Source: a virus. Taken from it: a DNA stretch of 64,000 nucleotides. The notes beneath the pieces are model-generated. The model was not told where the DNA came from, searched no databases, and saw only the letters and a list, made by a program, of their open reading frames with translations. This document shows, one piece after another, positions 12,782 through 41,498 of this stretch. The translations under genes were made by a program, and so were the position numbers. Position 1 is the stretch's first letter, and the number at the start of each line of letters is the position of its first letter. Where the stretch lies: positions 96,001-160,000 of the IMG/VR virus record IMGVR_UViG_3300045988_160394; one strand, 5' to 3'.

Positions 12782-12794
12782 GGAGGAATTTACA

Positions 12795-17773: not shown

Positions 17774-17834
17774 TATATAGCCTCATATGTGAAGTAATAT
17801 TCTATTGAATATATTTCACTGGAGGTAATGTGTT

Positions 17835-18080: not shown

Positions 18081-18085
18081 TTAAA

Positions 18086-18112
18086 GGACAGGTTTTATAC
18101 CTGTCTTTTTTA
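18086..18112 (+). terminator. intrinsic terminator
   Basis: ggacagg-ttttata-cctgtct followed by a T run. Confidence 0.75.
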
Positions 18113-18142
18113 TTGCAACAAAACATGAGGAGGGAGTAAGAT

Positions 18143-21100: not shown

Positions 21101-21217
21101 GTCGTCTTTGCTAATGTATATGCTAAATATAGAGCTCTTATTAAAAAAGATTCTTTTGTAAAAATTAAAGCAAGAAAAGAAGATGATGAAACTTGTTTTG
21201 TTAGTAGCATAGAATAG
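18143..21217 (+). CDS. dnaE: DNA polymerase III alpha-subunit homologue (DnaE type), copy 1
   Basis: PHP region PSHLHTTTGSIGDS (atypical), PGRGSVCGSLVAYLAGL, catalytic IPDVDSDF, FNKSHAVAYA. No TGA. Confidence 0.9.
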   Translation: MQNKYIPSHLHTTTGSIGDSIIKIPELIKKAKQLDLPAIAITNHGSMADMYDFYFECVSNNIKPIIGCEVYTTDDMDYKEKDARRNGHLVILAKDNNGLKNLLSITAAAQLQGFYYKPRIDYNFLESTDTSGLIATTACAGSDVNQLILQDKIEEAKELILRINNIFETFFLEIQPGDFDEQKKINKQLIKFSNELKIPLIASNDIHYLNAEDFIAHDAHVKSYRKQKLNDTLYYPDTCYYLMTREELFEALSKYVNEDIANTAINNTLLLNDMCNVVIDVNELNLPTFQCPQKMTPKAYLEYICLQKIDKIKDKICDVVEYTDRMYMELEVIDKLGFCSYYLIVRDFMEYARENNIPYGPGRGSVCGSLVAYLAGLIKIDAIKYNLLFDRFLSIHRTGSIPDVDSDFGSSGRQMMFDYVVNKYGADHCAAVSTFQMRKAKSAIKDAARMLDLVEEGECIAKLIPMVYYDDDGDKLTDLSIEDSLKAVEELREFKEIYPKIFDIAMKMEGLPRSSSIHAAGTLIAKTPLHDLIPMIKKKDSDLLNATSFDLSQAEKMKLVKYDFLGLSTLDVLEETKKTTGYYFDIEFDKYDDENVWKLIGSRNTTALFQIASSTYKQRMWRLKPQTIEELAACLALVRGPCISAKTDQTYIRILEGKEEVKTIHPFYDNAVKDTLGIMIYQEQLMECCHNFGLPLHVCYDIMKAAAKKKFDKLESYEQELWELAEPHMSKETFDIIFKIIVDSGLYSFNKSHAVAYATLCYETAYYKYYYPKEYLAAELTNIFTSVAADKRKERVAETVKDCRRLGIKFLPITAQDSEWKFKVEGDSIRIGMCSISSFGEKAYNAFSLVEDKTSIESVFESVNKTTCNKKAFNALIFAGAFGDRTQAYLKYCELRDESPVDEIVFHKTLRVNIYEDDREIEEKLLSYNFIYNLTNNLNAFGYKNLKKKAEFYCDALITRVKTKNDKNKNKMAWITLETGDGIIEGVVFANVYAKYRALIKKDSFVKIKARKEDDETCFVSSIE

Positions 21218-22645: not shown

Positions 22646-25600
22646 GTGGACTTATTTAGAATATCTGCAAATGGACTAGGCAGTATTTATTCTGATACTG
22701 TTATATTAGATAGTTATGAAAATGAAATAGTATTCTTTTCAGCTGTAGCTTACAATCCATTAATACAAGCTACAGTAAAACAAGTCTCAAAAGCAGGTTC
22801 ATTTGTATATGTTACTAATTCAGGTTCTTACAAATGTCCTAGACAAGGTTACAATACATCTATAAAAAGAGAATCAAATAGTGAATATTCTCATGTAGTA
22901 GCTTATGCAAAAGACAAGGTAGAATATAGAGAAGACGGATCAGAATTAATAAGAGTATATATATATTGTAAAGATGAATCTGAATTAGTAGAGAAGACTT
23001 ATGATAAATTAGTTAAGTATTCATCTATACCCGTACTTGATGAATGGAAAAGCTATGTTTGTGAAAAATTAATAGCTAATAGATTTTTAAAAAAATTAAG
23101 CGTAAAAACAAATAATAATTCTTTTTCATCAAATTGTTATAAATTAATATGTAATAAAGATTCTATAAAAACAATTATTCAAAGAGGCTTAAAAGAAAAA
23201 GCTATTAATATTAAAGGTAATAACAATCCTTCTGCATTAATGTCAGAAATAAAAGGATTAGATGCTTACTTATCTACATTTGGAGAAATATTGGCTCATA
23301 AAATACAAACAGCTTTTAGACCAAGATTTATTCCAGGAGAAGATAAGTATGATGACTTTACTAATTATTTAGATGATTATGTGTATGATGAAGCTAATAT
23401 TGAAGTATTTGAAGCTCAAAAATCAGTTATTCAAGCGATAACTAATAGTTTAAAAGTACATGACTCTGCTTTCTTAATAGCTGAAATGGGTGGAGGAAAA
23501 ACTTTAATGGGAGCTTCTATTCCATATGTTCATCATGCTAATAGAAATAAAGGTTATAATTCTATAGTAATGTGTCCTTCTCATTTAGTTAATGTTTGGG
23601 ATAGAGAAATTACTGAAAGAATACCTAATGCTAAAGCTTATATCATAAGAGATTATAAAGAACTTATAGACTTAGAACCTAAGCTAAGAAATAAGAATAA
23701 AGTTGAAAATTCTTATGTTATAATTTCTAAAGAAAGAGCTAAATTAGGTTATGATGTAAGACCTGCCGCTATCTGGAGCCGAAGTAAAAATACCTTTGTA
23801 TGTCCAGAATGTGGACAACCTTTATATACAAAAGAGTATGAAGGTAGTGGCAGACATAAAAGAGTAGTTCATGTTCCTTTTAATGAAACTAGTATGTTAA
23901 AACAATTAGCTTACAATAAAAGATGTATGAATGAAATAAAGAAATGGAATGCTAAAGAAGGTAAGTACGACGTTGTACATTGTAATGCTTCTTTATGGAC
24001 TCCATTAAATAAAGAAGACCAAGACCATAAATGGTTAAAGTTAGGTTCTGAAGGTTGGACTTATAAAGACCACGTAGTTACTCTAGTAAATAGATTAACT
24101 AGTTTAGAATCATTAACAAAAAAAGAATCTGCTTTATTAGCTAAACTTATGGAACAGTATGAGCTAATACAAGCAGGAGAAGAACCTTTTTCTAATTATA
24201 AAGGAATAAGAAAATATCCTATAGCAAAGTATATAAGAGAGAGAATGAACAATGTATTCGACTATTGTATAGTAGATGAATGTCATGAAATGAAAGGCTT
24301 AACTGAACAAGGTCAAGCCGCTGCTGATTTAATTTCATCTTCTAAAAAATCTATTTTATTAACTGGTACGCTATTAAATGGATATGCAGATGGTTTATAT
24401 TATTTATTATGGAGAACCGTTCCTAGATTAATGAGAAAAGAAGGTTTTAAATTCTCTGATGAAGGAGAGTTTGCTAGAATATACGGAGTTCATTCTAGAG
24501 AGTCTAGATTCTTAATGAGAAATGGATTAAGACAAAGACGTGTAGGATCTATCAAAGAAAAGAGATTACCAGGGGTATCCCCACTAGCATTTACAAAATT
24601 CTTATTAGAATACGCAGTGTTCTTATCTTTATCAGATATGTCAACAGGATTACCAGGATATGAAGAAATTCCTGTACCCGTTGCTATGGATTATGAATTA
24701 TTTAATGCTTACAGTCAATTTGAAGAAGCTTTTACTTCTTATGTTAGAGGAAGAGGAAGTAAGAAATGCATGGGGCCTTTCTTACAAAACTTATCAGCCT
24801 ATGCTGATTGCCCTCATATGGTTTCTCCTATTGTAGATCCTGATACTGGAGATATAGTATATACTCCTGTAGAATTGCCAAAACAACAAAGAAATAAAGA
24901 AGATGCTCTTTTAAGTTTAGTAGAAGAAAAAGTTAGAAATGGAGAAAAAGTTTTATTATACTATTCATGGGTTAATAAAACAGATGTTGGAGATTCATTA
25001 TTAAATCTATTAAAAGATAATGGTATAACAGCTTTTGAAATGAAATCGAATGTTACTTCTGATAAAAGAGAAGAATGGATAGAAAAGCATATAGCTAAGG
25101 GAATGCAAGTAATGATTTGTAACCCTAAATTGGTTGAAACAGGTTTAACACTGCTAGATTTTACATCCATTATATTTTATCAAATGGGATATAATTTATT
25201 TACTATGAGACAAGCTAGTAGAAGAAGCTGGAGGTTATCTCAAACAAAAGATGTTAAAGTATATTTTATGTATTATGAATCCTCTATTCAAGAACAAACT
25301 TTGAGTTTAATGGCTACTAAATTACAAGCTGCTATGGCACTTGAAGGTAAATTCTCAGAAGAAGGTTTAAGAGCAATGAGTAATAATGAAGATTTATTAA
25401 CTCAAATAGCTAATAATGTTGTAGAAGGAATAAAAGATACAGTTAATCAAGAAATCTTTAAAGCAACAGCTTTTATAAAATCAGATGAAGTAATTAATAG
25501 AGAACATTTGTTGCCTTCTTATATATTTAAAACTAATTTTAATGAATTAGGAGAACAATCAATATTCTCTAAGAAATCATTACAAGAAATACCTGATAGA

Positions 25601-25657
25601 AAAGTAGTTGATGTCAATGAAGATTTTTTAAAGAATCCTATATCTTTATTCCTATAA
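22646..25657 (+). CDS. SF2 (DEAD/DEAH-like) helicase with internal Zn ribbon
   Basis: AEMGGGKT (I), VDECHEMKG (II), LLTGTLLNG (III), QASRRSWRLSQ (VI), CPECG...C Zn ribbon. GTG start after AAGGAGGA. Confidence 0.75.
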   Translation: MDLFRISANGLGSIYSDTVILDSYENEIVFFSAVAYNPLIQATVKQVSKAGSFVYVTNSGSYKCPRQGYNTSIKRESNSEYSHVVAYAKDKVEYREDGSELIRVYIYCKDESELVEKTYDKLVKYSSIPVLDEWKSYVCEKLIANRFLKKLSVKTNNNSFSSNCYKLICNKDSIKTIIQRGLKEKAINIKGNNNPSALMSEIKGLDAYLSTFGEILAHKIQTAFRPRFIPGEDKYDDFTNYLDDYVYDEANIEVFEAQKSVIQAITNSLKVHDSAFLIAEMGGGKTLMGASIPYVHHANRNKGYNSIVMCPSHLVNVWDREITERIPNAKAYIIRDYKELIDLEPKLRNKNKVENSYVIISKERAKLGYDVRPAAIWSRSKNTFVCPECGQPLYTKEYEGSGRHKRVVHVPFNETSMLKQLAYNKRCMNEIKKWNAKEGKYDVVHCNASLWTPLNKEDQDHKWLKLGSEGWTYKDHVVTLVNRLTSLESLTKKESALLAKLMEQYELIQAGEEPFSNYKGIRKYPIAKYIRERMNNVFDYCIVDECHEMKGLTEQGQAAADLISSSKKSILLTGTLLNGYADGLYYLLWRTVPRLMRKEGFKFSDEGEFARIYGVHSRESRFLMRNGLRQRRVGSIKEKRLPGVSPLAFTKFLLEYAVFLSLSDMSTGLPGYEEIPVPVAMDYELFNAYSQFEEAFTSYVRGRGSKKCMGPFLQNLSAYADCPHMVSPIVDPDTGDIVYTPVELPKQQRNKEDALLSLVEEKVRNGEKVLLYYSWVNKTDVGDSLLNLLKDNGITAFEMKSNVTSDKREEWIEKHIAKGMQVMICNPKLVETGLTLLDFTSIIFYQMGYNLFTMRQASRRSWRLSQTKDVKVYFMYYESSIQEQTLSLMATKLQAAMALEGKFSEEGLRAMSNNEDLLTQIANNVVEGIKDTVNQEIFKATAFIKSDEVINREHLLPSYIFKTNFNELGEQSIFSKKSLQEIPDRKVVDVNEDFLKNPISLFL

Positions 25658-26092: not shown

Positions 26093-29000
26093 ATGCCACC
26101 TATTAATAAGATACCATTTAAAGTGAAATTAATGTCAGAATCATTAGCTGGCAAAAGTTATGATAAATCTAATATATCAAAACAATTTATTGTAATACAC
26201 AATATGGTTGGAACATCTGAAAGTTCCCTAAAATATTGGAATAGTGGCTCAGGTGGTCAATACACTTCTGCACATTATTGTGTAGATGATAAAGAAATTT
26301 GGCAAACTTTAAAAGATCAATGAGCAGGTCGACATTGTGGGAAACCTAGTCCTTGGGCAACTTTAAAGGGATGTAATAATAATACCTCTATTGGTATAGA
26401 AATAGCAGATATGCTTTGTAACCAAAAACAAGCTGTAGATAATGCTATTGATGTCGCTAGACATTTAGCAAAAGTTCATGGGATTCCATATGAAAATATT
26501 GTTAGACATAAGGATGTGTCTAATACTGATTGCCCAAAATGGATAGAAAGTCATAATTTATGGGATTATTTTAAAAAAGAAGTAGAAAGAAGAGATCAAG
26601 AAAACGTAGAATTGTGTTATGATCCTTCTACCGCAATATCTGGAGATGTTACACCAGGAGACAACGGTACTGCGTCACCAGAGACAGGTGGAAGTCAAAC
26701 TCTTCCTAACTTTGATAATAGGGAAGATTGAACAAATCTAAAAGAAATAAAAGGTGTTGTATTAGTTTGCATGCCTCCTCAACATTTTACTACTTTAAAA
26801 GATAAAGATGAAAAATGGGCAAAAGAAAAGTATGCTAAGGAGTTCCATTTTCTATATGATACTGAATGGAAAGAAGGTAAAGAAAAAACCTTAATAGCTA
26901 GATCATTGTTAGATAATGATAGGCACACTTATATAGAAAGAGCTTTATATAATAATAAAGCAGAAAAATCAGTATTAAGTGTAGGTATGTTTTTACCTCC
27001 TATGTTAGATGATTATCCAGCCTATGAAAAAAAATTAATAGATAATTTAGGCAAAGTAATTTATGAGAATAAATTAAACACTAAAGATCTATGGAGAGAA
27101 TTTGATTTCAATAGGACACCATCACCATTTATGTATCTTGATAGAGAACAATGGAAAAAGTTTTTAAGAGAGATAGATAAGCAAGTTAAATGGAGATATG
27201 AGAAATTTGGAGAACCTCTTCAACCAGAGAAAGATCCAACTCAAGATAATACTGATTATTCAAATATAAAAGAGAATATAGGTAAAGAAACAGTTACTTC
27301 AAGATATTGCTTATTAAGAGCAAATCCTAGCATGACTAGCCCAATAATACTGGCTTTAGAAAAGGATGTGCCTTTAACAATTACAGATGCAGATACTAGA
27401 GGCTATTATAAAGTTAAATTAGCAACAAATCAAAAAGAAGGTTGGTTAGTCGCTAAGAGCGTTAAAATAGAAAAAGAAGAAGAAAAAGCTACTTTAAAAC
27501 CATTAGTATTAGCTGCTGTTAAAGAAAAAGATATTCCTCAGCCAGAGATAACTCCAACTATGACTCATGACCAATATTTAAAATGGAAAGAACTAACCGA
27601 TCCTAAATTAATAGATGAATTTGTTGGAGAGTGTGAACCTTACGATAAAGGACTAAAAGAAATCATAGATTCAGCTGTTAAAAATGATGATAGATTAACA
27701 TCTTTAACTAAGAATATGGAAACAGAGAATAACTCTACTATTAATTATTCAGTTACAGAAGCATCACCAGGAGATTCTGGTCATTGTGTTAAGCCTTCTG
27801 CTGAACTTAATGTATTAATAAAACCTAGAGAATCTATAAAAGTAGATCCTGTTTATCCTGATTTAATTGTTCCTCCAAATTACACTCCAACTGATTATAA
27901 TATAAGGTCTCAAAATTCTATTCCTATGGCTACATTAGAAGACGGATCTTTAATAAAAGACGCTAAAGATTTCGATAATGATCAATTAACGTTTGATTAT
28001 GAGCTATTAAATGATAAGAAAAAGATATCTAAAGGTAAACCTATTAACTATTTGGACCCTTATCCATATGATGATAAAATAATAGAACTAGAAAAACATC
28101 ATCCTAAAGTAAAGATAGATGAAATAGAAGCTAGACTATATGAAAGCAATCATCCAGGGGACCCTAGTTCACAACCAATGGCTAAAAATTTTGCATTGGT
28201 TTATGATGCTATGTTAAAACAATCTAGTAGTATAGAGAAAAGACTTGTGAAGATAGAAAATGTATTAGCTAATGTATTACGTAATCAAGGTAGAATTGGT
28301 TCAAGAATAAACGTAAATTGTGTTTATTATGGAGGTCAAGACTCCTTTGGAAAATATAAAACAATTAGATGTTTATGTGATGATAGAATACATGATGCAA
28401 GTTCTGTTACATTAGACCAATGTTTATCTTGTACTAGATACGAACCTATCTTAGGACAAGTATATGATATTCTAGATGATACAGGTATGAATGGAACTGT
28501 ATTCTTAGATAACATGCAAATGGGTTATATGAATTTAGATGATTTAAAAAATCTTAATAGAGTTGAAAAAAGATGTACTTCTAATGAATATGCAAATGTT
28601 AATAAAGAGATGGAAAAACCAGAATCTCAAATTAAGAGATGGGAAGAATCTGATAAGAAGATATATATAGAATCTCTTAAGAAAAAGATTACTGACGAAA
28701 AGGAATTAGATAAAAAGATAAAAGAGATAAAACAAGAAGATTATAGCTTCAAAATGAATTGGTATGAGCAAGATTTAGATGTTCAAGAACCAGATGTAAA
28801 ACCTTATCCATTAGAGGGAATTAAAGCTAGGTATAAAAAAATAAATCTAAGTAATCCAGGAGAAGAATCAGATAACTATCTAGAAAAAGAATCTGTATTA
28901 GATGATTCTACAGATCAAGATACTATAAAAGATATGACTGATTTAGAGAAATTAAATAATGGAGAATGGGTTGATACTAGAGAGGAAGCTGATACTACTG

Positions 29001-30247
29001 AAATAAATAAATATTCTTCTGAAGATTATTATTTTGAAGATTTTAATATAACTAGAGCAAGTAGTGGTGTAGGCTCATCACCTAGTGGAGTATTTGGAGC
29101 AGAAGCTCGTAAAAAAATTGTTGAGAAGGCTAAAGAAATTGTTCAATTACATGCAGAAGGCAAAGCAGGATATTCTCAAGGATCACCTCCTGGAAATAGA
29201 ACTGTTAATGACGAACACCGTATAATGGGTAGTAATTCTGTATTAAGTAATGTAGTAGTTTATGATTGTTCTTCATTTGTTTCTTGTTGCTATAAATATG
29301 CTGGATTAAATAGTATGTATAATAAAACTACTTACGATCAAGTAGCAGCAATGACAAGTAAAAAAATGCCTGAACAATTTTGGTTAGCAAATGCAGAAGG
29401 AGTAAAAAAAGCGTTACCAGGGGATTTAATGTTTAAAACCTCAGGTATATCAATGTCAGAAAGCAATATAGGTTCTTATGTTGATACAGAGCATGTAATG
29501 ATATATATAGGAGATAACAAAGTAGCACATGCTTCAAGTGGTAATAGACCAGTTCCAAAACAAATACCTATAGATAATGTTGATTATTATTTAAATTCAA
29601 GACATTTCTTTGCAAGACCTTGGGATTTAATAGAAGCTGATAAACAAGCTCAAGCTAATGGAGTTATAGGTGGAGGAGCTGAAGCAGTAGGAAACATAGT
29701 TACATCTAAAGGAGAAAACTTTGGCTATGTATACTCTTTCCCTAAAGCAGTTTGTTCTGTATATACCGATACTAATAAAGGTGCAAGTGGTGCTATGTGT
29801 ATACCAAGCGAAAGTAATATAGTAGCAGCTCATAATATGCCTTATGAAACAGTTATTTATATTAAAGAACTTGATGGAAAAGGCGGAGGAGGAACTGTTG
29901 CATTTAAAAACTGGTTAGGTATAACTACTCATACTAAAAATTTAGGTCAAGTCAATAACGGAGTCTTTATCGTTGGTGATACTGGTGGTCCATACTTTGA
30001 CTTTGATATATGTACAAATAAGTTTTCTAACAAAGGGAATATGGATGTTTTAGTGTTAGAATGGGGTAAATCAAAAATTCCTTTCTGGTCTTTCACAGAT
30101 GCAATTAACAATGAAGGTAGAGCTTTCCCTAAATATCCAGATGCTATTAGATCATATAAACGTATGAATGGAACAACAATTAACTTCTTTAAATTCAAAG
30201 ATAAAGATAAAGGATTAAGTCAAAGTTCAAAATGGACTTCTATTTAA
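26093..30247 (+). CDS. 1384-aa multidomain peptidoglycan hydrolase (Amidase_2 + SH3 + NlpC/P60 + 3D/DPBB-like), decoded with TGA=Trp
   Basis: ORF-track pieces 26093..26323, 26411..26731 and 26771..30247 share one frame and are joined by TGA at 26321 and 26729. Amidase_2: FIVIHNM...SAHYCVD...[TGA]AGRHCG...NNTSIGIEIAD...HKDVSNTDCPKW. SH3: RYCLLRANP...GYYKVKL..EGWLVAKSV. NlpC/P60: VVYDCSSFVSCCYKYAG...EHVMIYIG. C-terminal end: FIVGDTGGPYFDFDIC. Confidence 0.8.
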
Positions 30248-30351: not shown

Positions 30352-30440
30352 GATCTTTTGATATTTTGAACACGATTATGCTTATTTTTGTCTGCATAAT
30401 TAAACCTCCTAACTAACTTTAATTTGATATATAAATTAGA

Positions 30441-30473
30441 AAGAACACCTGAACGGATGGGTGTTCTTTTTTT
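30441..30473 (+). terminator. intrinsic terminator
   Basis: aagaacacc-tgaacggatg-ggtgttctt (9 bp) followed by a T run. Confidence 0.8.
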
Positions 30474-30559: not shown

Positions 30560-30688
30560 ATGGCTTTGTATCCAAATAAGTTTTCAAGTGATTCTTCATT
30601 AAAACCTAAAAAGGAGGCGAAGAAGATGGCTTGTAAAGGAAAAAAGAAAACTACTAAAAGCGGCAAATGTGGAAAAGGAGGTAAATAA
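30560..30688 (+). CDS. small Lys-rich peptide (42 aa; alternative 20-aa form from ATG 30626)
   Basis: The strong RBS TAGGAGGA is 8 nt upstream. A second AAGGAGG lies before the internal ATG. Ends TAA, and the next gene is coupled. Confidence 0.35.
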   Translation: MALYPNKFSSDSSLKPKKEAKKMACKGKKKTTKSGKCGKGGK

Positions 30689-30690
30689 TT

Positions 30691-31017
30691 ATGATAGGTA
30701 ACATAGTATATCTTCATTTATTTAAATTACCTGAAACATTAGCTGTTAAACAATCATTAGACAAACATAGATTTGTTAAAATCATAGAAGAAACTCCTGT
30801 TCAAGGTGGTAAACAAGGAGAACAATATATAAAATATAAAGGTGAATCTTTATATGATAGTAAAAAAGTTTATGAATTTAATAATTATTTAAGTCCTTTT
30901 AATTATTCAACATTAGAAGATTTAGATAGTATTGTTGAAAGTTTAAAAAACATTTTGCTTCCTAGTAATTATGATGATATAATCAATATGATAAATGAAG
31001 TAAAGGCTATTAAATAA
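30691..31017 (+). CDS. hypothetical protein (108 aa)
   Basis: Intact ORF with RBS AAGGAGG. No terminator lies between it and the downstream non-coding region. Confidence 0.5.
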   Translation: MIGNIVYLHLFKLPETLAVKQSLDKHRFVKIIEETPVQGGKQGEQYIKYKGESLYDSKKVYEFNNYLSPFNYSTLEDLDSIVESLKNILLPSNYDDIINMINEVKAIK

Positions 31018-31021
31018 TTTA

Positions 31022-32369
31022 TTATATGGGTGTCGAAAGACTCTTGTTGTTGGTGTACTACGGAGTGTCCCTTAAGCACTTTAAAACCATCAATGGGTAT
31101 GGACATTTAAAACCCATGCCACTGTTCCGTGAATGACGGGTATCGTAAGAGTAGAATATCATTCACTTGTATTGTATGCAATATTAGTCAAGGATAGAAA
31201 TGGCTTCTATCACGCTACTAAAAAGTAGTTGTCAGAGATGTAGGGTTGCCAAACTTACTAACTAATTAGCAAAACTAACTTCGGTATCAAATGATTCAAC
31301 TTTATAGCTAGTGTAATGTCCGTTAAGCATTTAAAAGCTATATGATCAATGAAACTTATGAAAGGCAGAATTATAAGTGGAGATCATCATTCAGGTTTAT
31401 AGTTAGATCCTGTTATGCTTACTTTATTGAATTATAAAATAATCTTTAAAAATAAAATTAATAATGGCGTTAATTGAAAATCTTTTATCACAATAAAACA
31501 ATAAAGGAAAAACATAAAAAAGCTATAATCATAACGATCATACTGATATTTCCTACGGGTTGTCAGTTAATAAATGGAGGCGAGTTGTCCGCAGAATTAA
31601 CCGTAATAGTGGGGATTAATACACTAGGCAATAAATCTACTCCTACATCTAATAGGGTTAGTAGTCTTAGAAAGACTATAATCTTAAAAGGGCAAGGTAA
31701 CAGCTAGAGCACAAATCCTAATCTGAGAAGTTAGGTCGCATTAAGTGGTAAGACACTATTTTTTAAATAAAATCAGTTACTAAAATCTTAATTGACGTGA
31801 GCATTCTTCTTCAGCTATTAATGAAGATGAAAATAAGTCTCTTCTCAGCAGTTGAGTATATGCTATGACTAGTAAAATAGTCTATCCAATATGAGGAGAA
31901 ATATCATATGCGTGGTGGATACAGGTGTATGACATATAGCAGGTCAGTTACCATCGCACTGGCTGTCAATTTAACCTGTAATTTTAATAGAGATCCCCCT
32001 AGGGCTATGTCATTAGGAATAATGTTAACCCCAACTGAGGGCCGTTTAAATCGTTACGAAGTACAAGTAACACTGTAATAGGGACATAAGCTGAGTTCAG
32101 TACGGCTACTACAAAAACATTAAAATCTCGCTACCGTCTAACATAATCCTCTATCATGTTTATTAGCTAAGTTAGACTAGATAATAATACTAAGATAGAT
32201 GCCTAGTTTTGCGAGGGGTCTAGGGTTAATTAGAATTAAAAGTACCTCTCTTTACGGAAATGGGTTACCAGGGTAATTCCCCCTGTAATGTATGTGCTTT
32301 ATGTTTTTTCAATTTTTAGGCTGAAAGAGCCGTCAAGGAGATCGGTTAAGGATACTGATCTCCTAATAT
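31022..32369 (+). ncRNA. candidate large structured non-coding RNA (about 1.35 kb; possibly two RNAs split by an AT-rich stretch at 31440-31545)
   Basis: No credible ORF in any frame even with TGA as sense. G/C visibly enriched compared with the flanks. Many short G/C-rich helices, some with GNRA-type loops: 31032-31041 gtc-GAAA-gac; 31093-31117; 31193-31211; 31997-32004; 32269-32285; 32319-32331; 32337-32363. Bounded by a tRNA-like element and a terminator. The + strand is inferred from these. Confidence 0.45.
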
Positions 32370-32444
32370 CGGAGTATAGTTTATGGAAAACACCAGAAAG
32401 CATTTATGTTGGTAATGTAAGTTCGATTCTTACTGCTCCGACCA
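32370..32444 (+). tRNA. tRNA-like element (acceptor stem + T arm + encoded ACCA) with a non-canonical anticodon arm; isotype not assignable
   Basis: Acceptor cggagta/tgctccg (7 bp, one G-U). T arm gtaag-TTCGATT-cttac. Discriminator A plus CCA. D-arm-like gttt-atgga-aaac. The middle region forms only accag/ttggt with a 12-nt loop. No TCA anticodon is present. Confidence 0.45.
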
Positions 32445-32479
32445 TTAACCACACAAATATATATGTTAAATCAACAAAA

Positions 32480-32510
32480 AGACTAGAAGGTTTTATCCCT
32501 CTAGTCTTTT
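32480..32510. terminator. bidirectional intrinsic terminator
   Basis: agactagaagg-ttttat-ccctctagtct has T runs on both strands. It lies between the + strand RNA region and the stop of the convergent dnaE copy 2. Confidence 0.75.
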
Positions 32511-32513
32511 ATA

Positions 32514-35500
32514 TTATTTAAGTTTAACGGAACTTATAATTAATTGTTTTCTAGAATCTTTTTTACCTTTTATTATAAGAGTTGGTTGAGGTCTATCTTC
32601 TCGAACTTCAAACTTGTCTGAATTAGCACAATATGTTCTAGCAAAAGCTACACAAGGTATTGTTACTCCTTCTGATTCTATCTTAGGGAATGACATCATA
32701 TTACCGTTTTTATCTATTAATTCTCTATTAGATACTACTGTTGCTTCTATTTCAATAGTTTGATTTGTTTCTACTTCATCCCACCATGGTTTATATGTTA
32801 TAGGTAATCCTAAAGTTTTAGTTTCATAATCCATACATACTTTTTCATCATAAGTATCAGCAGTAGGCATTATTTCTATTTTATCTTTTCTTAAAGTATA
32901 AAATTCATTTAATAAAGCATTTCTATTAGTATTAAACTTATCTAATGCTCCTGACTTTATTAATGCTTCTCCTACTCTTTTATTTAAGAACTTTTTAGGT
33001 ATTCTATCCATCATATCTTGTAAAGAAGTGAATTCTCCACTTTCTTTTCTTATTTTTAGTATTTCTTTAACAGCATTTTCTCCTACACCTTTTATAGAAC
33101 CTAATCCATATAATATCTTAAAGTTTTCAGGTAATGGTGTAAAGTCTTTATTAGAGATATTTATATCTGGTAATTCTACTTGTAATCCCATATCTTCTAC
33201 TACAGGTATATATTTAACTCTTTTCTTTTCGTCATCTTGTACTGATAATACAGATGCAAAGAAATCAACTGGATAATATCTTTTTAAGTAAGCTGTTAAT
33301 AATGTTATATATGAATAACAAGCTGCATGAGATTTATTAAATAAGTAAGAAGCATATCCTTCCATATCAGCCCAGAAAGCTTCTAAATCTTTTATATCAT
33401 ATCCATTATTAGATGCTCCTAATATTGGTGCACCATATTTTGCAGATGGATCATACATAGTACAATTTGGATTATTATTATCATATCCTTTTGGTGCTTC
33501 TTCATTTTTCTTACCATAGATTAACCATCTTTTACATAAGTCCATTATAGCTTGTTTCTTTTTAGCTAATGCTTTTCTAAGATATGAGTCTGCTTGGTTA
33601 TCGTCGAACCCAGCAATCTTTTTAGCAATAGCCATTACTTGCTCTTGATATACAATAGTACCGAATGTATCTCCTACGATATCTTCTGTATCATGAACTG
33701 GCATTACTATTTCTTCTAAGCCATTCTTTCTATTGTTATATTTAGTATGCATTCCTGCTTGTAGAGGACCAGGTCTTCCTATTGATGTAAGAACGACTAT
33801 GTCATCCATACTTGTTGGTTGCATATCAGAGATGATACCTTTAAACAAGTCAGATTCTATTTGGAAAACAGCTTCTGTTTCTTTATTACATATCATATCG
33901 AATACACCTTCATCATCTAATTCAACAGTTTTATATAAGTCTTCCCATTCAAGAGTTTCATCTATTGAATGCATAGCTTTATCAATTACACTTACTGTTT
34001 TTAATCCTAAAAAGTCATATTTAACTCCATTACATTCTTCAACTTGAGGACCAGTATATAAAGTAACTTTAACTCCAGTATCAGGATCTATTCTTATAGG
34101 GAATGTATCTGTTATAGGATTAGGAGTAGTAAGTATACCTGAAGCATGTACACCAAAGTTTCTCTTAGTACCTTCAAATCTTCTAGCTAATCTAAATAAC
34201 TCTGGATATTCATTTTCTATTTCTTTAAATTGTCTATATTTTTCAGGGTCAGTCTTTTCGTATTCATCTAAATCTTTAAAAGATATACTAGGAGCTTCAT
34301 CTGTTATTACAGTTATCTTTTTAGATATTTCATCTGTTATTGCATATGGCATATCTAATACTCTTCCTATATCTCTTACTCCTGATTTAACGCCTAATTC
34401 TGAATAAGTTCCTATATGAGCTACACATTCTTCTCCATATACTTCTTCCATATGTTCTATTACTCTATCTCTACCATAATAACAAAAATCTACGTCTACA
34501 TCTGGTAAAGCAGTTCTATCCATAGTTAAGAATCTTGAGAACAGTAATCCATTTTGTATAGGATCTATTACTTTAGTTATTCCTAATAAGAATAATACTA
34601 AACTACCTGCTGCTGATCCTCTCCCTGGACCTGTAGGTATTTTATTGCTATTAGACCAAAATATAAACTCATCTACTGTTAACATATAAGGAGCATATCC
34701 TTTTTTGTTTATTACATATAACTCCCAATTTAATCTAGCTTCATATTCTCTTCTATCATATTCAGGATGTTTAGCTAAATATTTATATAATTTCTTCCAA
34801 CACTTATATGTTAAGTATTTTTCACTTGTATATCCTTTAGGTAATTTAACTTCTGTAAATAAAGGTTTTTCACTTTTTAATCTTATATCTCCGTCTACCA
34901 TTTCAGCTATTAAGTTAGTATTTTCTAATCCTTTTATTACTTCTTCCATATATTCTTCGTTAGGAGCCAATCTTTTAAAAGCATTTACCATTTCATCATA
35001 ACTTCTCATCCAGAACTCTGGTTCATATCTCATTCTATCTATTTCGTCTTTCTTTTTGCCTAATCCTATACATAATAAAGTATCATGATCGTCTATATCA
35101 CTTTGTCTTGTATAATGAACATCATTAGTAGCTATTATTTTTAAGTCTAACTTTTTAGCCAATTTTATTAACTCTATATTTACTTCTTTTTGTACTTCCC
35201 AATCTAATCCTTGTATTTCTACAAATAGATTTTCTTTTCCGAAGATTTCTTTCCATTCAGTTAATATTTTTTCAGCAGTATCTATCTTACCATGTTTTAT
35301 AGAATTAGCTATTACAGAACCTATACATGCAGTTGTACATATTATTCCTTCTGAATACTTTTTAAGTAATTCGTTATCGCAATGAAATCTTGCATTAAAT
35401 AAACCTTTTTCAGATGCTTCACTTTGTATTTTAACAAGATTATGCCATCCTATTTGGTTTTTAGCTATTAATATAATATGATATCCTTTAGTATCGTACA

Positions 35501-35849
35501 TATAAGGTTTTATCAATTCGTTAATTTCTTTTTTAGTTGCTTTTCTAGGTATTTCTATTCCGTTTTTTATTGCTTCTTCTTGTGCTATTTTTGTTCTTTT
35601 ATCTAATGGTAAAGATATCATATCTCTATCCCATGTCCAATATAATTCAACTCCTAATAATGGTTTTATTCCATTCTCCTTACAAGCTGATTGAAACTCC
35701 AATACTCCACCTAAATGATTATGATCTGTTATAGCTAATGCCTTCATATTTAACTCTTTAGCTCTTAATACTCTTTCTAATGGACTTCCCATTCCATCTA
35801 GTAAACTGTAATGAGTATGACAATGTATATGCGTAAAGTTCTTTTCCAT
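32514..35849 (-). CDS. dnaE: DNA polymerase III alpha-subunit homologue (DnaE type), copy 2
   Basis: Canonical PHP HIHCHTHYSLLDG, PGRGSAAGSLVLFLLGI, catalytic LPDVDVDF, FNKSHAACYS. All 14 Trp codons are TGG. Confidence 0.9.
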   Translation of the reverse strand: MEKNFTHIHCHTHYSLLDGMGSPLERVLRAKELNMKALAITDHNHLGGVLEFQSACKENGIKPLLGVELYWTWDRDMISLPLDKRTKIAQEEAIKNGIEIPRKATKKEINELIKPYMYDTKGYHIILIAKNQIGWHNLVKIQSEASEKGLFNARFHCDNELLKKYSEGIICTTACIGSVIANSIKHGKIDTAEKILTEWKEIFGKENLFVEIQGLDWEVQKEVNIELIKLAKKLDLKIIATNDVHYTRQSDIDDHDTLLCIGLGKKKDEIDRMRYEPEFWMRSYDEMVNAFKRLAPNEEYMEEVIKGLENTNLIAEMVDGDIRLKSEKPLFTEVKLPKGYTSEKYLTYKCWKKLYKYLAKHPEYDRREYEARLNWELYVINKKGYAPYMLTVDEFIFWSNSNKIPTGPGRGSAAGSLVLFLLGITKVIDPIQNGLLFSRFLTMDRTALPDVDVDFCYYGRDRVIEHMEEVYGEECVAHIGTYSELGVKSGVRDIGRVLDMPYAITDEISKKITVITDEAPSISFKDLDEYEKTDPEKYRQFKEIENEYPELFRLARRFEGTKRNFGVHASGILTTPNPITDTFPIRIDPDTGVKVTLYTGPQVEECNGVKYDFLGLKTVSVIDKAMHSIDETLEWEDLYKTVELDDEGVFDMICNKETEAVFQIESDLFKGIISDMQPTSMDDIVVLTSIGRPGPLQAGMHTKYNNRKNGLEEIVMPVHDTEDIVGDTFGTIVYQEQVMAIAKKIAGFDDNQADSYLRKALAKKKQAIMDLCKRWLIYGKKNEEAPKGYDNNNPNCTMYDPSAKYGAPILGASNNGYDIKDLEAFWADMEGYASYLFNKSHAACYSYITLLTAYLKRYYPVDFFASVLSVQDDEKKRVKYIPVVEDMGLQVELPDINISNKDFTPLPENFKILYGLGSIKGVGENAVKEILKIRKESGEFTSLQDMMDRIPKKFLNKRVGEALIKSGALDKFNTNRNALLNEFYTLRKDKIEIMPTADTYDEKVCMDYETKTLGLPITYKPWWDEVETNQTIEIEATVVSNRELIDKNGNMMSFPKIESEGVTIPCVAFARTYCANSDKFEVREDRPQPTLIIKGKKDSRKQLIISSVKLK

Positions 35850-40585: not shown

Positions 40586-41479
40586 TTATATTGTAGGAAG
40601 GCTAGCTTTTCTACCAGAGTTCCTACTTCTTTTTAATTGTTCTTTACTATAATTAGATTGATTACAAAGCTTATTAATAGCTTCACGTCTTCTTTGATTA
40701 ATGGTATTTATATGAGCTCCAAAATATTCTGCTATTTGTCTATCGTTTCAGTTTTCTAAATAATACTTAACAAGTATTTTTCTTTGAAAAGTAGATAAGC
40801 TTACAAATAGTTTTCCACATGTTTGACCATTTAATCAAGACAAATCAGGCAACCCTGTTATCATTTCATAATTATTATCTAAATTCTCTACAACTGATTT
40901 TTCAGTATCTATTGCTGTTGTTCAATCTTCAAATACATGATTCTTATAATTAATACTTAATGGATCTTTGATTCATTTTTTTATATGTCTGCCAACTTCA
41001 TGTTTGAAAACATTGTGTACATATGCACAAAAGTTTTTTCCTACGTTCTTATATCTTTTAGCTAATATTAAAAGACACATGCTTAAATCAGAAATTATAT
41101 CTTCTTCAGTATTTGCTCCGTATGTTTTTGTTACAAAATTGAATTTATTATAAGCACTAGCTCTATTTTCAGCATTTATCTTTTTTCTATATAATGCTTT
41201 TTTTAGTTCATAATCGTCAACAAATAAAGCTACGAATTCTTTTGTTTCTTTATCAGTTCAGTCTATGATTAAATGCTTTATAACTTGTATATATTTTCAG
41301 AAGAGAGGAGAAAACCTTGCTAATAGAATGTTACCGCATTCATCAGCATATTTCTTTTCAACCTCTGTACAGTCATTACTAAATTGTGCTTGAAAATGTA
41401 ACACTAAAGCTTCAATCTCATCTCACTCTTCTTTAAGTTCTTCTTCACTTTTAAAACCTAAATTAGTGAGTTTATTCAT
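40586..41479 (-). CDS. sigma-70-family RNA polymerase sigma factor (297 aa); all 7 Trp codons are TGA
   Basis: Checked codon by codon: open from ATG 41479 (RBS AAGGAG) to TAA 40586, with TGA at 40748, 40835, 40922, 40973, 41258, 41297 and 41423, and no TGG. Region 2-like EEDIISDLSMCLLILAKRYKNVGKNFCAYVHNVFKHEVGRHIKK. Region 4 HTH LSTFQRKILVKYYLEN[W]NDRQIAEYFGAHINTINQRRREAINKL. Confidence 0.8.
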
Positions 41480-41498
41480 TTTCATTCTCCTTTATTTA

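What the first reader, a model, noticed from the sequence alone, without database searches (positions are those of the whole stretch)
31022..32369. About 1.35 kb with no credible ORF, G+C-enriched and hairpin-dense: candidate large structured ncRNA next to a tRNA-like element
This is the only long stretch of the window without a credible ORF in any frame, even with TGA as sense. Its composition differs visibly from the AT-rich flanks. It is packed with short G/C-rich helices, several closed by GNRA-like loops: gtc-GAAA-gac at 31032-31041; atgggt/acccat at 31093-31117; gatagaa/ttctatc at 31193-31211; ccctaggg at 31997-32004; caggg/ccctg at 32269-32285; ggc-tgaaaga-gcc at 32319-32331; ggagatc/gatctcc at 32337-32363. 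It follows a small + strand gene with no intervening terminator, abuts a tRNA-like element and ends at a strong bidirectional terminator. An AT-rich stretch (31440-31545) could divide it into parts of about 0.4 kb and 0.83 kb. The large ornate RNAs GOLLD and ROOL (Weinberg et al.) are typically found in phages or prophages and adjacent to tRNAs. This may belong to one of those classes or be a new class. I cannot recognise their consensus by eye.
Basis: partly seen in the sequence, partly recalled or inferred. Interest (0 to 1): 0.85.

Follow-up and report, generated by a model that had tools for sequence, protein, structure and literature searches.

The report
Mosaic structured-RNA island in a jumbo phage
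The ORF-free 1.5 kb is a real, conserved noncoding RNA island in a roughly 260 kb gut phage, holding one known small RNA (skipping-rope), an odd tRNA-like gene and several unclassified hairpin-rich modules, and it behaves as a string of swappable modules, not as a GOLLD or ROOL RNA.

Summary
Window 31018-32513 is the only long ORF-free stretch, even with TGA read as sense, which this phage does in some genes. It sits between a 108-codon gene and a convergent DnaE-like polymerase gene.

Rfam finds two things there. One is a skipping-rope RNA at 31183-31266 (57.6 bits). The other is a tRNA-like gene at 32370-32441 with a 12-nt anticodon loop. GOLLD, ROOL, introns, tmRNA and RNase P do not match, even at E<=10.

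Four phage lineages carry an island at this same site. Lineages with 65-71% DnaE identity have only 18-56 nt there, or a nuclease-like ORF. Island length runs from 563 to 2278 nt because modules of 40-930 nt come and go, even among near-identical phages.

Shared modules are as conserved as, or more conserved than, the flanking genes: 88-96% against 71-78% in the most distant lineage. Local hairpins keep pairing through compensatory changes: 12 pairs changed on both sides, against 0-2 in slid controls. A short hairpin with loop CCNUYAA recurs one to three times per island.

Folding energies are ordinary. No long-range helix is supported.

Best reading: a plus-strand cluster of structured RNA modules, probably co-transcribed with the tRNA-like gene. 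A single giant RNA is not excluded.

The parts
30560..31017 (+). Two small genes directly upstream: a 42-codon Lys-rich ORF (30560-30688) and a 108-codon ORF (30691-31017). No terminator separates them from the island. They are probably the 5' part of the same transcription unit.
   Evidence: ORF list. Both are called as genes in all sister contigs and in lineages without the island. No Pfam or PHROG match. The nearest upstream terminator is at 30438-30471.
31030..31176 (+). Module A. It holds a GUC-GAAA-GAC hairpin (31032-31041), copy A of the recurrent hairpin motif (stem 31062-31068/31076-31082, loop CCCUUAA 31069-31075) and an 8-bp hairpin GUGAAUGA/UCAUUCAC (31129-31136/31159-31166).
   Evidence: Sequence. 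Repeat families D1 and D2 link A to B. Motif covariation. CM hit of 32.4 bits. 89% identical in L025.
31183..31266 (+). Skipping-rope RNA (Rfam RF02924), full length: a three-hairpin junction closed by P1.
   Evidence: 57.6 bits against a gathering score of 36.7, E=3.6e-11, model positions 1-80 of 80. Homologues in sister and distant lineages score 61-71 bits. Deleted together with its flanks in L004 and L010.
31290..31420 (+). Module B, a paralogue of A. It holds hairpin-motif copy B (outer stem 31303-31309/31336-31342, inner stem 31315-31319/31327-31331, loop CCGUUAA 31320-31326) and a second hairpin (31348-31352/31387-31391).
   Evidence: In L024 and L025 the inner stem AUG/CAU becomes ACG/CGU, and both halves of the outer stem are deleted together. 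The inner helix CUUAU/AUAAG becomes UUUAU/GUAAA in L025. CM hit of 35.1 bits.
31421..31534 (+). AT-rich spacer with a promoter-like site: TTGAAA (31474-31479), 17 nt, AACAAT (31497-31502). TTGAAAATCTTT is conserved in all four lineages. It may be an internal promoter.
   Evidence: L025 has TTGAAA-16-AATAAT, 10 of 12 matches. The number of promoter-like sites in the region does not exceed shuffles, so this is only a lead. The 12-mer is not recurrent in the window.
31535..31680 (+). Module C1. It holds hairpin ACUGAUA/UUGUCAGU (31542-31548/31560-31567) and the small stem GCG/CGC (31580-31582/31590-31592). The loop of that stem, GUUGUC (31584-31589), can pair with GGCAAU (31627-31632), giving a pseudoknot-like arrangement. 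It also holds helix AUUAACC/GGUUAGU (31595-31601/31656-31662) and hairpin AGUC-UUAGAAA-GACU (31663-31677).
   Evidence: 88% identical in L015 while flanking genes are 71-78%. GCG/CGC becomes GUG/CGC in L024 and GUG/CAC in L015 and L025. GUUGUC/GGCAAC becomes GUUAUC/GAUAAU in L025.
31681..31860 (+). Module C2. It holds helix GGUAAC/GUUACU (31696-31701/31777-31782), hairpin CCUAAU/GUUAGG (31717-31722/31730-31735) and hairpin UUCUUCUUCA/UGAAGAUGAA (31805-31833).
   Evidence: 89-92% identical in L015 and L025. CCUAAU/GUUAGG becomes CCUAGU/GCUAGG in L015 and L025. The module is absent from L024.
31861..31989 (+). Module X, closed by helix AAAAU/AUUUU (31874-31878/31981-31985) and holding hairpin GGUCAGU/ACUGGCU (31942-31948/31958-31964). 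An SD-like GAGGAG plus ATG (31908) opens an ORF of 56 aa in the window and 62 aa in sister phages.
   Evidence: Closing-helix pair is U:A in the window and L012, C:G in five sister contigs and U:G in L025. The adjacent pair is G:U in L006 and A:C in L025. The hairpin becomes GGUCAAU/AUUGACU in L025. The ORF shows 9 nonsynonymous against 3 synonymous changes, distributed 6/2/5 over codon positions. It is absent from L015 and L024, and its C-terminus is replaced in the window and in L012.
31989..31990 (+). Deletion junction. The window, L005 and the related contig L021 belong to the same allele group, and this allele lacks module D, which is about 330-370 nt long. D is present in all other island-bearing contigs that reach this point. 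In those contigs D ends in a terminator-like hairpin followed by a U-run.
   Evidence: The D closing helix GAUUGC.../...GUAAUC becomes AAUUGC.../...GUAAUU in L015. The D hairpin CCCUAUAG/CUAUAGGG becomes CCCUAUGA/UCAUGGGG in L025. A deletion in L012 leaves the closing helix intact. The terminator-like site is at L008 7641-7659.
31990..32112 (+). Module E, the most conserved piece. It holds hairpin CAUUA-GGAA-UAAUG with a GNRA loop (32011-32024), hairpin GUUAC/GUAAC (32053-32057/32067-32071) and helix UGUAAUAG/CUACUACA (32074-32081/32106-32113).
   Evidence: 93-96% identical in L015, L024 and L025. The GNRA loop is GGAA or GAAA. In L025 the hairpin is replaced by a 30-nt longer branch with a re-paired base (GAUAG/CUAUU).
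32113..32230 (+). Module M8. It holds hairpins GUCUAAC/GUUAGAC (32137-32143/32171-32177) and CCUAG/CUAGG (32202-32206/32220-32224).
   Evidence: 92-95% identical in L022 and L024. Its 3' part is retained in the minimal island of L011.
32231..32369 (+). Module M9. It holds hairpins CAGGG/CCCUG (32269-32285), GGC-UGAAAGA-GCC (32319-32331) and GGAGAUC/GAUCUCC (32337-32363, loop GGUUAAGGAUACU). It ends 6 nt before the tRNA-like gene.
   Evidence: Sequence. In L004, L006, L024 and L015 it is replaced by an unrelated 281-nt (or shorter) module that also ends in a long hairpin with a CUUAAGG loop just before the tRNA.
32370..32444 (+). tRNA-like gene with an encoded CCA. Acceptor, D and T arms are normal. 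The anticodon arm has a 5-bp stem (ACCAG/UUGGU) and a 12-nt loop.
   Evidence: Rfam tRNA 45.2 bits. ARAGORN gives no call. Fold. Alleles at the same site: an 8-nt loop UUUCUAUA (ARAGORN 'tcta') in L003, L008, L009 and L011; a normal tRNA-Trp(CCA) in L015; no tRNA in L022.
32477..32510 (.). Bidirectional intrinsic terminator shared with the convergent DnaE-like gene (32514-35849, - strand).
   Evidence: 14-bp stem with an A-run before it and a T-run after it. Conserved in all lineages.

Best explanation
The region is an accessory noncoding-RNA island. It is inserted between the stop codons of two convergent genes of a roughly 260 kb gut jumbo phage that reads TGA as sense in part of its genes.

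The island is a string of independently foldable, + strand structured RNA modules: A, skipping-rope, B, C1, C2, X, (D), E, M8 and M9. It ends with a tRNA-like gene and the shared terminator.

Shown:
- No protein is encoded.
- The modules are conserved at the nucleotide level at least as well as the neighbouring genes.
- Many local helices are kept by compensatory and G-U-compatible changes.
- One module is a member of the known skipping-rope family.
- A short hairpin with the loop CCNUYAA (closed by U-G and G-C pairs) recurs one to three times per island.
- Whole modules are gained, lost or exchanged between otherwise near-identical phages.

Inferred:
- The island is transcribed rightwards. 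Transcription comes either by read-through from the two small upstream genes or from a promoter in the AT-rich spacer, and ends at the terminator at 32477-32510.
- The precursor is cut by host RNase P and RNase Z at the tRNA-like element, and elsewhere by other RNases. The recurrent hairpins and the long hairpin just before the tRNA are candidate cut sites.
- The resulting stable small RNAs act in trans during infection. The most likely mode is binding proteins through the conserved loops.
- The presence/absence pattern suggests a dispensable function, dependent on host or defence systems, comparable to phage tRNA arrays and anti-defence loci.
For: Noncoding:
- Searches show only short ORFs under both genetic codes.
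- Searches show no protein-family match.
- One search shows the only ORF that stays open has 9 nonsynonymous against 3 synonymous changes.
- Searches show indels between lineages that are not multiples of three.

Known RNAs on the + strand: skipping-rope at 57.6-71.3 bits and tRNA at 42-58 bits.

Conservation against L015: flanking genes 71-78% nt identity, C1 88%, C2 89%, E 96%.

Covariation, using a structure derived from one sequence only:
- 12 pairs changed on both sides, against 0-2 in six slid controls and 3.7 +/- 1.5 in shuffles (0 of 500 reached 12).
- 95% of cells are paired, against 40-45% in controls.
- About 30 conserved G-U pairs fit only the + strand.

Recurrent hairpin: 10 distinct versions, 94% of cells paired, 3 of 5 pairs changed on both sides. 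Copies occur only inside islands.

Modularity:
- Island length is 563-1995 nt among contigs that share an identical 108-aa protein.
- L024 lacks C2 and X. L015 lacks A, skipping-rope, B and X. The window lacks D. L011 keeps only A, skipping-rope, the end of M8, M9 and the tRNA.
- The L012 deletion leaves the D closing helix intact.

Insertion site: relatives with 65-71% DnaE identity have 18-56 nt there, or a PD-(D/E)XK-like ORF.

Transcription signals: there is no terminator inside the window's island. A terminator-like hairpin ends module D in sister phages, which argues for more than one RNA.
Against: - There are no expression data, so transcription, strand, ends and processing are all inferred.
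- Diversity is low: four lineages at 73-99% identity. Most helices therefore never vary, and the covariation test rests on about a dozen pairs.
- The tested structure came from one of the aligned sequences, which inflates the percentage of paired cells.
- Folding energies are no better than shuffled sequence.
- C1 and E are present in every island that has any core module, so they could be parts of one RNA.
- Promoter-like sites do not exceed chance.
- The skipping-rope copy lacks the 3' terminator typical of its family.
Confidence: 0.6

Rival explanations
1. One large multi-domain RNA. The conserved core (C1-C2-X-(D)-E) spans about 600 nt in the window and 750-1100 nt elsewhere. On this reading it is a single ornate RNA of a new class, functionally analogous to GOLLD or ROOL. 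X, D and the 86-nt insert would be dispensable peripheral domains, and the tRNA-like gene would define its 3' end.
For: - Size, phage origin and tRNA adjacency match the GOLLD/ROOL context described in PMC5737381 and bioRxiv 10.1101/2024.12.08.627333.
- C1 and E co-occur in every island that has core modules, always in the same order.
- Domain-sized deletions leave closing helices intact, as in large RNAs with peripheral extensions.
- There is a pseudoknot-like pairing in C1, with one compensatory and three one-sided changes.
- RNAalifold proposes C1-E and C2-E helices. One is a 9-bp C2-E helix compatible in all sequences.
- Several loops carry the self-complementary UUAA or CUUAAG, which could form kissing contacts.
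Against: - The proposed long-range helices fail in other lineages. L025 deletes GGAG of the C-closing helix. A G-to-A change breaks UGUCC:GGACA.
- By my estimate, the remaining long-range candidates are no more numerous than chance allows for this many column pairs.
- L024 lacks the highly conserved C2 altogether.
- A terminator-like hairpin sits between D and E in sister phages.
- Folding energy is ordinary.
- There is no similarity to any large Rfam RNA.
Confidence: 0.25
2. The island is a cis-acting untranslated tail or regulatory buffer. It would be a long 3' UTR and terminator zone between convergent operons, for example to prevent transcriptional collision or to control mRNA decay. It would produce no trans-acting RNA, and its hairpins would serve only as RNase barriers.
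For: It lies exactly between convergent transcription units and has no terminator before it. Relatives manage with 18-56 nt at this site, so it is dispensable.
Against: - Specific loop sequences are conserved at 93-96% across lineages in which the flanking genes are 71-78% identical.
- A known free-standing sRNA family and a tRNA-like gene are embedded in it.
- The same modules are kept in the same order across lineages.
Confidence: 0.08
3. The island acts at the DNA level, as a replication terminus or origin, a packaging site or a recombination hotspot. On this reading its inverted repeats act as DNA hairpins or protein-binding sites.
For: The cumulative GC skew peaks at 32200-32500, where gene orientation switches. 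The site is a hotspot for indels and for insertion of a nuclease-like gene in L014. Paralogous units A and B recombine, giving the L004 deletion.
Against: - Helices tolerate G-U but not A-C, and about 30 conserved G-U pairs fit one strand only.
- The RNA genes inside are all on the + strand.
- Relatives lacking the island have the same gene convergence, so the skew switch does not need it.
- No iterons or direct-repeat arrays were found.
Confidence: 0.04
4. The island hides one or more small protein genes, in particular the 56/62-codon ORF starting at 31908 behind GAGGAG. On this reading its conservation reflects coding.
For: A strong SD-like sequence lies 8 nt before the ATG. The ORF is 62 codons long with the same stop in the L008-type and L025 lineages, and it includes a TGA codon that this phage reads as sense. 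A gene caller called it in L005 and L025.
Against: - There are 9 nonsynonymous against 3 synonymous codon changes. Changes fall 6/2/5 on codon positions, and the other two frames score alike.
- The ORF's start is absent from L015 and L024, although the downstream sequence is conserved there with frame-breaking indels.
- Its C-terminal half is replaced in the window and in L012.
- Several of its changes are the two sides of RNA helices.
- It has no family match.
- It covers only 12% of the island.
Confidence: 0.03

Closest known systems
Skipping-rope RNA (Rfam RF02924; Weinberg et al. 2017, PMC5737381)
   Same: Window 31183-31266 matches the full model well above the gathering score. It shows the three-hairpin junction with conserved purine-rich joining strands. 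The family is known from phages and prophages, and its function is unknown.
   Different: The family is described as followed by a Rho-independent terminator and as associated with a particular nearby protein gene. Here there is no terminator after it. It is embedded in a longer noncoding array and is absent from some sister phages.
GOLLD and ROOL large ornate RNAs
   Same: All are phage-borne, ORF-free stretches of hundreds of nucleotides lying near tRNA genes. GOLLD has a variable part and a conserved part, and tRNAs can sit in its linker. These RNAs have no known protein partner.
   Different: There is no covariance-model match at any threshold tried. No conserved pseudoknotted long-range architecture could be shown. 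Modules are independently dispensable. The island occurs in very few lineages. Multimer formation is untested.
Phage tRNA clusters that carry extra small stable RNAs. One example is the T4 tRNA region with RNA species 1 and 2 (from my own knowledge). Another is the abundant long ncRNAs next to the tRNA genes of Staphylococcus phage K (PMC9241854).
   Same: These are noncoding RNAs of unknown function placed beside tRNA genes, likely co-transcribed and processed. Their content varies between related phages.
   Different: There is no sequence similarity (no blastn match in 50,697 phage records). Here there is only one tRNA-like gene, with an aberrant anticodon loop, and a much larger non-tRNA part.
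Accessory insertion hotspots (morons, anti-defence islands) of phage genomes
   Same: The content between two conserved genes is variable. It is present in some lineages and absent in close relatives, and another lineage has a nuclease-like gene at the same spot.
   Different: The cargo here is RNA, not protein genes.

Membership tests
Skipping-rope RNA (RF02924) | Covariance-model score at or above the curated gathering score over the full model | tested here: met
   57.6 bits against 36.7, model positions 1-80 of 80, E=3.6e-11. Homologues in sister and distant lineages score 61.5-71.3 bits.
Skipping-rope RNA (RF02924) | Three hairpins in a junction closed by an outer helix, with conserved purine-rich joining strands | tested here: met
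   The alignment to the consensus shows P1 (AUUAGU/ACUAAU), three hairpins, and the AAGG, GAAA and AGAGAUG strands. Hairpin stems differ between lineages while staying paired.
Skipping-rope RNA (RF02924) | Rho-independent terminator directly downstream (PMC5737381) | tested here: not met
   No terminator-like site lies between 31266 and 32476.
Skipping-rope RNA (RF02924) | Association with a particular protein gene nearby | not testable with these tools
   The paper's supplementary text that names the protein is not held. The neighbouring genes here have no family assignment.
GOLLD RNA | Match to the Rfam covariance model | tested here: not met
   No match at gathering score or at E<=10 with lax filters, either on the window's island or on the longest island variant of the window clade (L006).
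GOLLD RNA | Location in a phage or prophage next to tRNA genes | tested here: met
   The window is jumbo-phage DNA, and a tRNA-like gene lies 6 nt downstream.
ROOL RNA | Match to the Rfam covariance model | tested here: not met
   No match.
ROOL / GOLLD (functional class) | Conserved long-range and pseudoknot interactions supported by covariation; homo-oligomeric cage | tested here: inconclusive
   Only one short pseudoknot-like pairing in C1 has support. The proposed inter-module helices are broken in L025. Oligomerisation cannot be tested here.
tRNA | Cloverleaf recognised by tRNA models | tested here: inconclusive
   Rfam RF00005 gives 45.2 bits against 29, but ARAGORN finds no tRNA in the window.
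tRNA | Seven-nucleotide anticodon loop with a readable anticodon | tested here: not met
   The window has a 12-nt loop between ACCAG and UUGGU. Sister alleles have an 8-nt loop. Only L015 has a canonical Trp(CCA) loop.
Protein-coding gene | Open frame conserved between lineages, with an excess of synonymous change | tested here: not met
   The longest shared ORF has 9 nonsynonymous against 3 synonymous changes. It is missing in two lineages. There are frame-breaking indels elsewhere.

The most novel reading that the evidence does not exclude
The conserved core (C1-C2-E, with X and D as optional domains) is a new class of large phage RNA, comparable in size and genomic setting to GOLLD and ROOL. 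Its loops carrying the self-complementary UUAA/CUUAAG sequence would mediate RNA-RNA contacts or bind a phage or host protein.

A more speculative variant concerns the recurrent 7-nt loops CCGUUAA, CCCUUAA and CCGUCAA. These equal the anticodon loops of tRNA-Asn, tRNA-Lys and tRNA-Asp except for C in place of U33. Together with the tRNA-like gene and its deformed anticodon loops, they would be decoys for host anticodon nucleases.
Probability: 0.2. Interest if true: 0.8.

Novelty: new variant of a known kind. Interest (0 to 1): 0.55.

Why it matters
Phage noncoding RNAs beside tRNA genes (GOLLD, ROOL, the phage K long RNAs) are abundant, yet none has a known function. This locus adds a set of unclassified, conserved structured modules plus an orphan skipping-rope RNA.

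Unusually, nature has already made the deletion series. Near-identical phages differ by single modules. Comparing these variants in the metagenomes where they occur, or in culture if a host is found, could therefore link individual modules to host range or defence systems.

The locus also shows a skipping-rope RNA embedded in a longer array, not standing as a free gene with its own terminator. Finally, it lies in a phage with gene-specific TGA recoding whose only nearby tRNA-like gene has non-canonical anticodon loops.

Tried and rejected
1. Rfam membership in GOLLD, ROOL, raiA, OLE, introns, tmRNA or RNase P: no match at gathering score or at E<=10.

2. Similar DNA in cultured phages: none for the window's island or the L006 island. 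For L015 only the tRNA-Trp matched.

3. Exact 20-22-mers from C1 and E:
- None in IMG/VR.
- None in GTDB genomes.
- In the metagenome collection, only one contig, from the same phage.
The wider distribution therefore could not be established.

4. Relatives via DnaE in IMG/VR (51% identity): no island and no Rfam match.

5. C-module closing helix GGAGGC/GUCUCU and C1-E helices: rejected. L025 lacks GGAG, and a G-to-A change breaks UGUCC:GGACA.

6. Other long-range helices. One links the 86-nt insert to C2 with two compensatory changes. Another is a 9-bp C2-E helix. By my estimate these are within what chance allows, so I did not adopt them.

7. Thermodynamic support: z-scores of -0.34, -1.03 and +0.18, so none.

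8. Dispersed repeat or mobile mini-element: no copy of any module elsewhere in the window or in nine related loci. The hairpin-motif model finds no credible copy outside islands. The two weak hits at 40756 and 40946 lie inside a TGA-recoded sigma-like gene.

9. Decayed tRNA genes as the origin of units A and B: no tRNA-model hit at E<=10, and the outer stems enclose only the hairpin.

10. Small proteins: rejected as the cause of conservation.

11. A shorter AUGG/CCAU alternative is kept there.
Full report
**The observation**

Window 31018-32513 lies between the stop of a 108-codon + strand ORF (30691-31017) and the stop of a 1111-codon - strand gene (32514-35849). Under the standard bacterial code the longest ORFs inside are 77, 77 and 56 aa.

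While checking a weak model hit elsewhere, I saw that a sigma-factor-like gene at 40586-41485 has seven in-frame TGA codons and no TGG. I therefore repeated the ORF scan with TGA as Trp. Coverage of the window by ORFs of 90 aa or more rises from 80% to 91%. The ORF-free gaps of 500 nt or more shrink from six to two: this region (1496 nt) and 17457-18142 (686 nt). The latter visibly holds two small genes.

G+C is 0.33-0.37 against 0.22-0.30 in the flanks. The listed hairpins are present. The terminator at 32477-32510 is real, and no terminator separates the upstream gene from the region.

What is not confirmed is that the hairpins exceed chance. Minimum free energies have z-scores of -0.34, -1.03 and +0.18 against dinucleotide shuffles.

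**Setting**

The flanking genes are phage genes. They include two DnaE-like polymerase III alpha genes, SNF2-type helicases, a RecJ-like exonuclease, an amidase endolysin and a tail protein with an NlpC/P60 domain. The identical 108-aa protein is found on at least 23 metagenome contigs, the longest being 262-263 kb. One related contig is titled gut metagenome. The closest cultured relatives of the polymerase are only 31-35% identical. This is therefore a jumbo phage known only from metagenomes, with gene-specific TGA recoding.

**Known RNA families**

Rfam 15 gives two matches in the window, both inside or at the edge of the finding and both on the + strand:
- a full-length skipping-rope RNA at 31183-31266 (57.6 bits, gathering score 36.7);
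- a tRNA at 32370-32441 (45.2 bits).

With permissive filters and E<=10 on the region alone, nothing else appears beyond chance-level miRNA-like hits on the upstream terminator. The same holds for the longest variant of the window clade (L006). GOLLD, ROOL, raiA, OLE, group I/II introns, tmRNA and RNase P are therefore excluded as far as covariance models can tell.

ARAGORN does not call the tRNA. Its acceptor, D and T arms are normal, but its anticodon stem ACCAG/UUGGU encloses a 12-nt loop.

**Sister contigs show a mosaic**

In ten contigs carrying the identical 108-aa protein, the intergenic distance ranges from 563 to 1995 nt. Pairwise and multiple alignments show sharp module-sized differences against an otherwise 94-100% identical background:
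- L004 and L010 lack 31118-31327, which includes the skipping-rope. The deletion runs between two paralogous sequences.
- Five contigs (L003, L004, L007, L008, L009) carry an 86-nt insert at about 31663-31679.
- Every complete contig except the window's own allele (L005) and the minimal island L011 carries roughly 330-370 nt more at 31989 (module D).
- L004 and L006 replace 32231-32366 with an unrelated 281-nt module.
- L012 has a 41-nt insert after the skipping-rope and a deletion inside D.
- L011 keeps only 31018-31270 plus 32201-32513.
- The tRNA is allelic. Four contigs have a different sequence with an 8-nt anticodon loop UUUCUAUA, read by ARAGORN as a four-base anticodon.

**More distant lineages**

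I used the polymerase and the 108-aa protein as anchors.

Three further lineages have an island at the same site:
- L015 (polymerase 73% identical): 1234 nt, with a normal tRNA-Trp(CCA).
- L024 (108-aa protein 85% identical): 1445 nt.
- L025 joined to L022, from one sample with a 26-nt overlap: 2278 nt, with no tRNA.

Five lineages with 65-71% polymerase identity have only 18-56 nt between the two stop codons. One of them has a 176-aa ORF with a weak PD-(D/E)XK nuclease match instead. The island is therefore an accessory insertion.

Module content differs again between the island-bearing lineages:
- L015 lacks A, skipping-rope, B and X.
- L024 lacks the end of C1, all of C2 and X.
- L025 has everything, plus extra sequence.

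No module has a copy elsewhere in the window or in nine related loci.

**Conservation**

Against L015, the tail gene, the two small ORFs and the polymerase gene are 71-78% identical at the nucleotide level. C1 is 88%, C2 89% and E 96%. Against L024 and L025 the modules are 82-96% identical, similar to the neighbouring small ORFs. Indels between lineages are often 1, 2 or 4 nt. This is conservation of the nucleotide sequence itself.

**Structure**

I folded one sequence (L008) with a 140-nt span limit. I projected that structure onto an eight-sequence alignment and counted pairs. The results:
- 12 pairs have changes on both sides, against 0-2 in six slid controls and 3.7 +/- 1.5 in shuffles (0 of 500 reached 12).
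- 95% of cells are paired, against 40-45% in controls. This second figure is inflated because the structure came from one of the sequences.

Concrete cases:
- CCUAAU/GUUAGG becomes CCUAGU/GCUAGG.
- GCG/CGC becomes GUG/CGC and then GUG/CAC.
- GUUGUC/GGCAAC becomes GUUAUC/GAUAAU.
- The helix that closes X has U:A in the window and L012, C:G in five sister contigs and U:G in L025, among sequences that otherwise hardly differ.
- GGUCAGU/ACUGGCU becomes GGUCAAU/AUUGACU.
- CCCUAUAG/CUAUAGGG becomes CCCUAUGA/UCAUGGGG.
- GGG/CCC becomes GGA/UCC.
- The closing helix of D changes G:C to A:U.
- In E, a GNRA-capped hairpin (GGAA or GAAA) is replaced in L025 by a longer branch on a re-paired stem.

About 30 conserved G-U pairs, and many G-C to G-U or A-U to G-U changes, fit the + strand only. 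That agrees with the strand of the skipping-rope and the tRNA.

**A recurrent hairpin**

A short hairpin recurs one to three times per island, about 250 nt apart where repeated, and only on the + strand inside islands.
- It has a stem of 3-7 bp ending in G-C then U-G.
- Its 7-nt loop is CCNUYAA (CCCUUAA, CCGUUAA, CCGUCAA or UCGUUAA).
- In ten distinct versions, 94% of cells pair and three of five pairs change on both sides.
- Outer stems differ completely between copies: UGGU/ACCA, UAUAGCU/AGCUAUA, ACAGUU/AACUGU and AUGGU/ACCAU.
- A covariance model of it finds no credible copy outside islands.
- The long hairpins just before the tRNA also carry UUAAGG in their loops.

The loops equal the anticodon loops of tRNA-Asn, tRNA-Lys and tRNA-Asp apart from position 33. 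I note this as an untested resemblance.

**Coding potential**

No island ORF matches Pfam or PHROGs. One ORF deserves mention: ATG at 31908 behind GAGGAG. It is 62 codons long in the L008 type and in L025, where it includes one TGA, and a gene caller called it in L005 and L025.

Between those two lineages it has 9 nonsynonymous and 3 synonymous codon changes. The changes fall 6/2/5 over codon positions, and the other frames look the same. Its start is absent from L015 and L024, while the downstream sequence is conserved there with frame-breaking indels. Its C-terminal half is replaced in the window and in L012. Protein coding does not explain the conservation.

**One RNA or several**

RNAalifold proposed two kinds of long-range helix: one closing C (GGAGGC/GUCUCU) and helices between C1 or C2 and E. 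L025 lacks GGAG, and it has a G-to-A change that breaks UGUCC:GGACA.

I made an exhaustive search for helices compatible in all sequences. It gives local helices with the best support, plus one pseudoknot-like pairing inside C1. A few long-range candidates also appear: the 86-nt insert with C2, and C2 with E. By my estimate these are no more numerous than chance allows.

Other evidence points to a string of separately folding units:
- modules are lost independently;
- the strongly conserved C2 is absent from L024;
- a terminator-like hairpin lies at the end of D in sister phages;
- skipping-rope exists elsewhere as a free-standing RNA.

A single multi-domain RNA is not excluded. C1 and E always co-occur, in order, and domain deletions leave closing helices intact.

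**Likely mechanism**

The following is inferred, not shown. Transcription runs rightwards from the promoter of the two small genes, possibly also from the conserved TTGAAA-17-AACAAT site in the AT-rich spacer, and ends at the shared terminator. RNase P and RNase Z cut at the tRNA-like element, and other nucleases separate the modules. The resulting stable RNAs act in trans, probably through protein binding at the conserved loops. The patchy distribution points to a dispensable, host-dependent role.

**Comparison and novelty**

One module is a member of the skipping-rope family, although it lacks the family's usual 3' terminator. The tRNA-like gene fails the anticodon-loop criterion. The rest resembles GOLLD, ROOL and the phage K long RNAs in setting only; membership was tested and not met. 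I file the locus as a new variant of a known kind: phage noncoding RNA next to tRNA genes.

The main limits are the absence of expression data and the shallow alignment of four lineages.

Noticed in passing
window 40586-41485 (-), 59595-61517 (-), 61504-63915 (-), 12707-13066 (-), 5715-7382 (+): TGA is read as sense in a subset of genes. The sigma-70 region-4-like gene has 7 in-frame TGA and no TGG, and two large genes have 10 and 11. With table 4, ORF coverage rises from 80% to 91%. The two polymerase genes and the 22646-25657 helicase have none. This looks like gene-specific stop-codon recoding. No tRNA(UCA) is present in the window.
   Followed up: partly
window 32370-32444; L003 8060-8134; L015 8401-8475 (-); L022: The tRNA position is allelic. 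The window, L004, L006, L007 and L024 have a 12-nt anticodon loop. L003, L008, L009 and L011 have an 8-nt loop UUUCUAUA with a fully re-paired anticodon stem. L015 has a normal tRNA-Trp(CCA). The L022/L025 lineage has no tRNA. All tRNA versions encode CCA. Whether any of the odd versions decodes is unknown.
   Followed up: partly
window 18143-21217 (+) and 32514-35849 (-); L007 8207-12327, L009, L024 4698-8535: The phage carries two full-length DnaE-like polymerase III alpha genes. In some sister contigs the second one is split into 762-aa and 343-aa parts. In L007 and L009 a 292-aa LAGLIDADG-type ORF lies between them, suggesting an intein or a homing-endonuclease insertion.
   Followed up: no
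L014 8372-8902 (-): A relative without the island has a 176-aa ORF with a weak PD-(D/E)XK endonuclease match at the same position. The site is therefore a general insertion hotspot.
   Followed up: partly
window 30560-30688 (+): A 42-codon ORF encodes a very lysine-rich peptide (MALYPNKFSSDSSLKPKKEAKKMACKGKKKTTKSGKCGKGGK). It is conserved in all relatives, directly upstream of the 108-codon gene and the island. It has no family match and could be a nucleic-acid-binding peptide.
   Followed up: no
L008 6973-7058 (86-nt insert) with L008 about 7190; L025 equivalent: A 6-bp pairing between the optional 86-nt insert and the 5' strand of the C2 hairpin shows two adjacent compensatory changes: GAGAAG/CUUCUU against GAGAGA/UCUCUU. 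It is borderline against chance. The insert is not present in the window.
   Followed up: partly
window 26093-30247 (+): With TGA as sense, the tail/lysin gene extends upstream to 1384 codons with 2 in-frame TGA. This matches the 1384-aa product with an amidase domain called in L008. Its 3' end is much more variable between sister contigs (about 85%) than the rest (98-100%).
   Followed up: no
window 17457-18142: This is the second-longest stretch without an ORF of 90 aa. It holds two small genes: a Cys-rich ORF from 17529, and a hydrophobic ORF from 17836 with an in-frame TGA. A terminator hairpin lies at 18083-18106. There is no Rfam match.
   Followed up: partly
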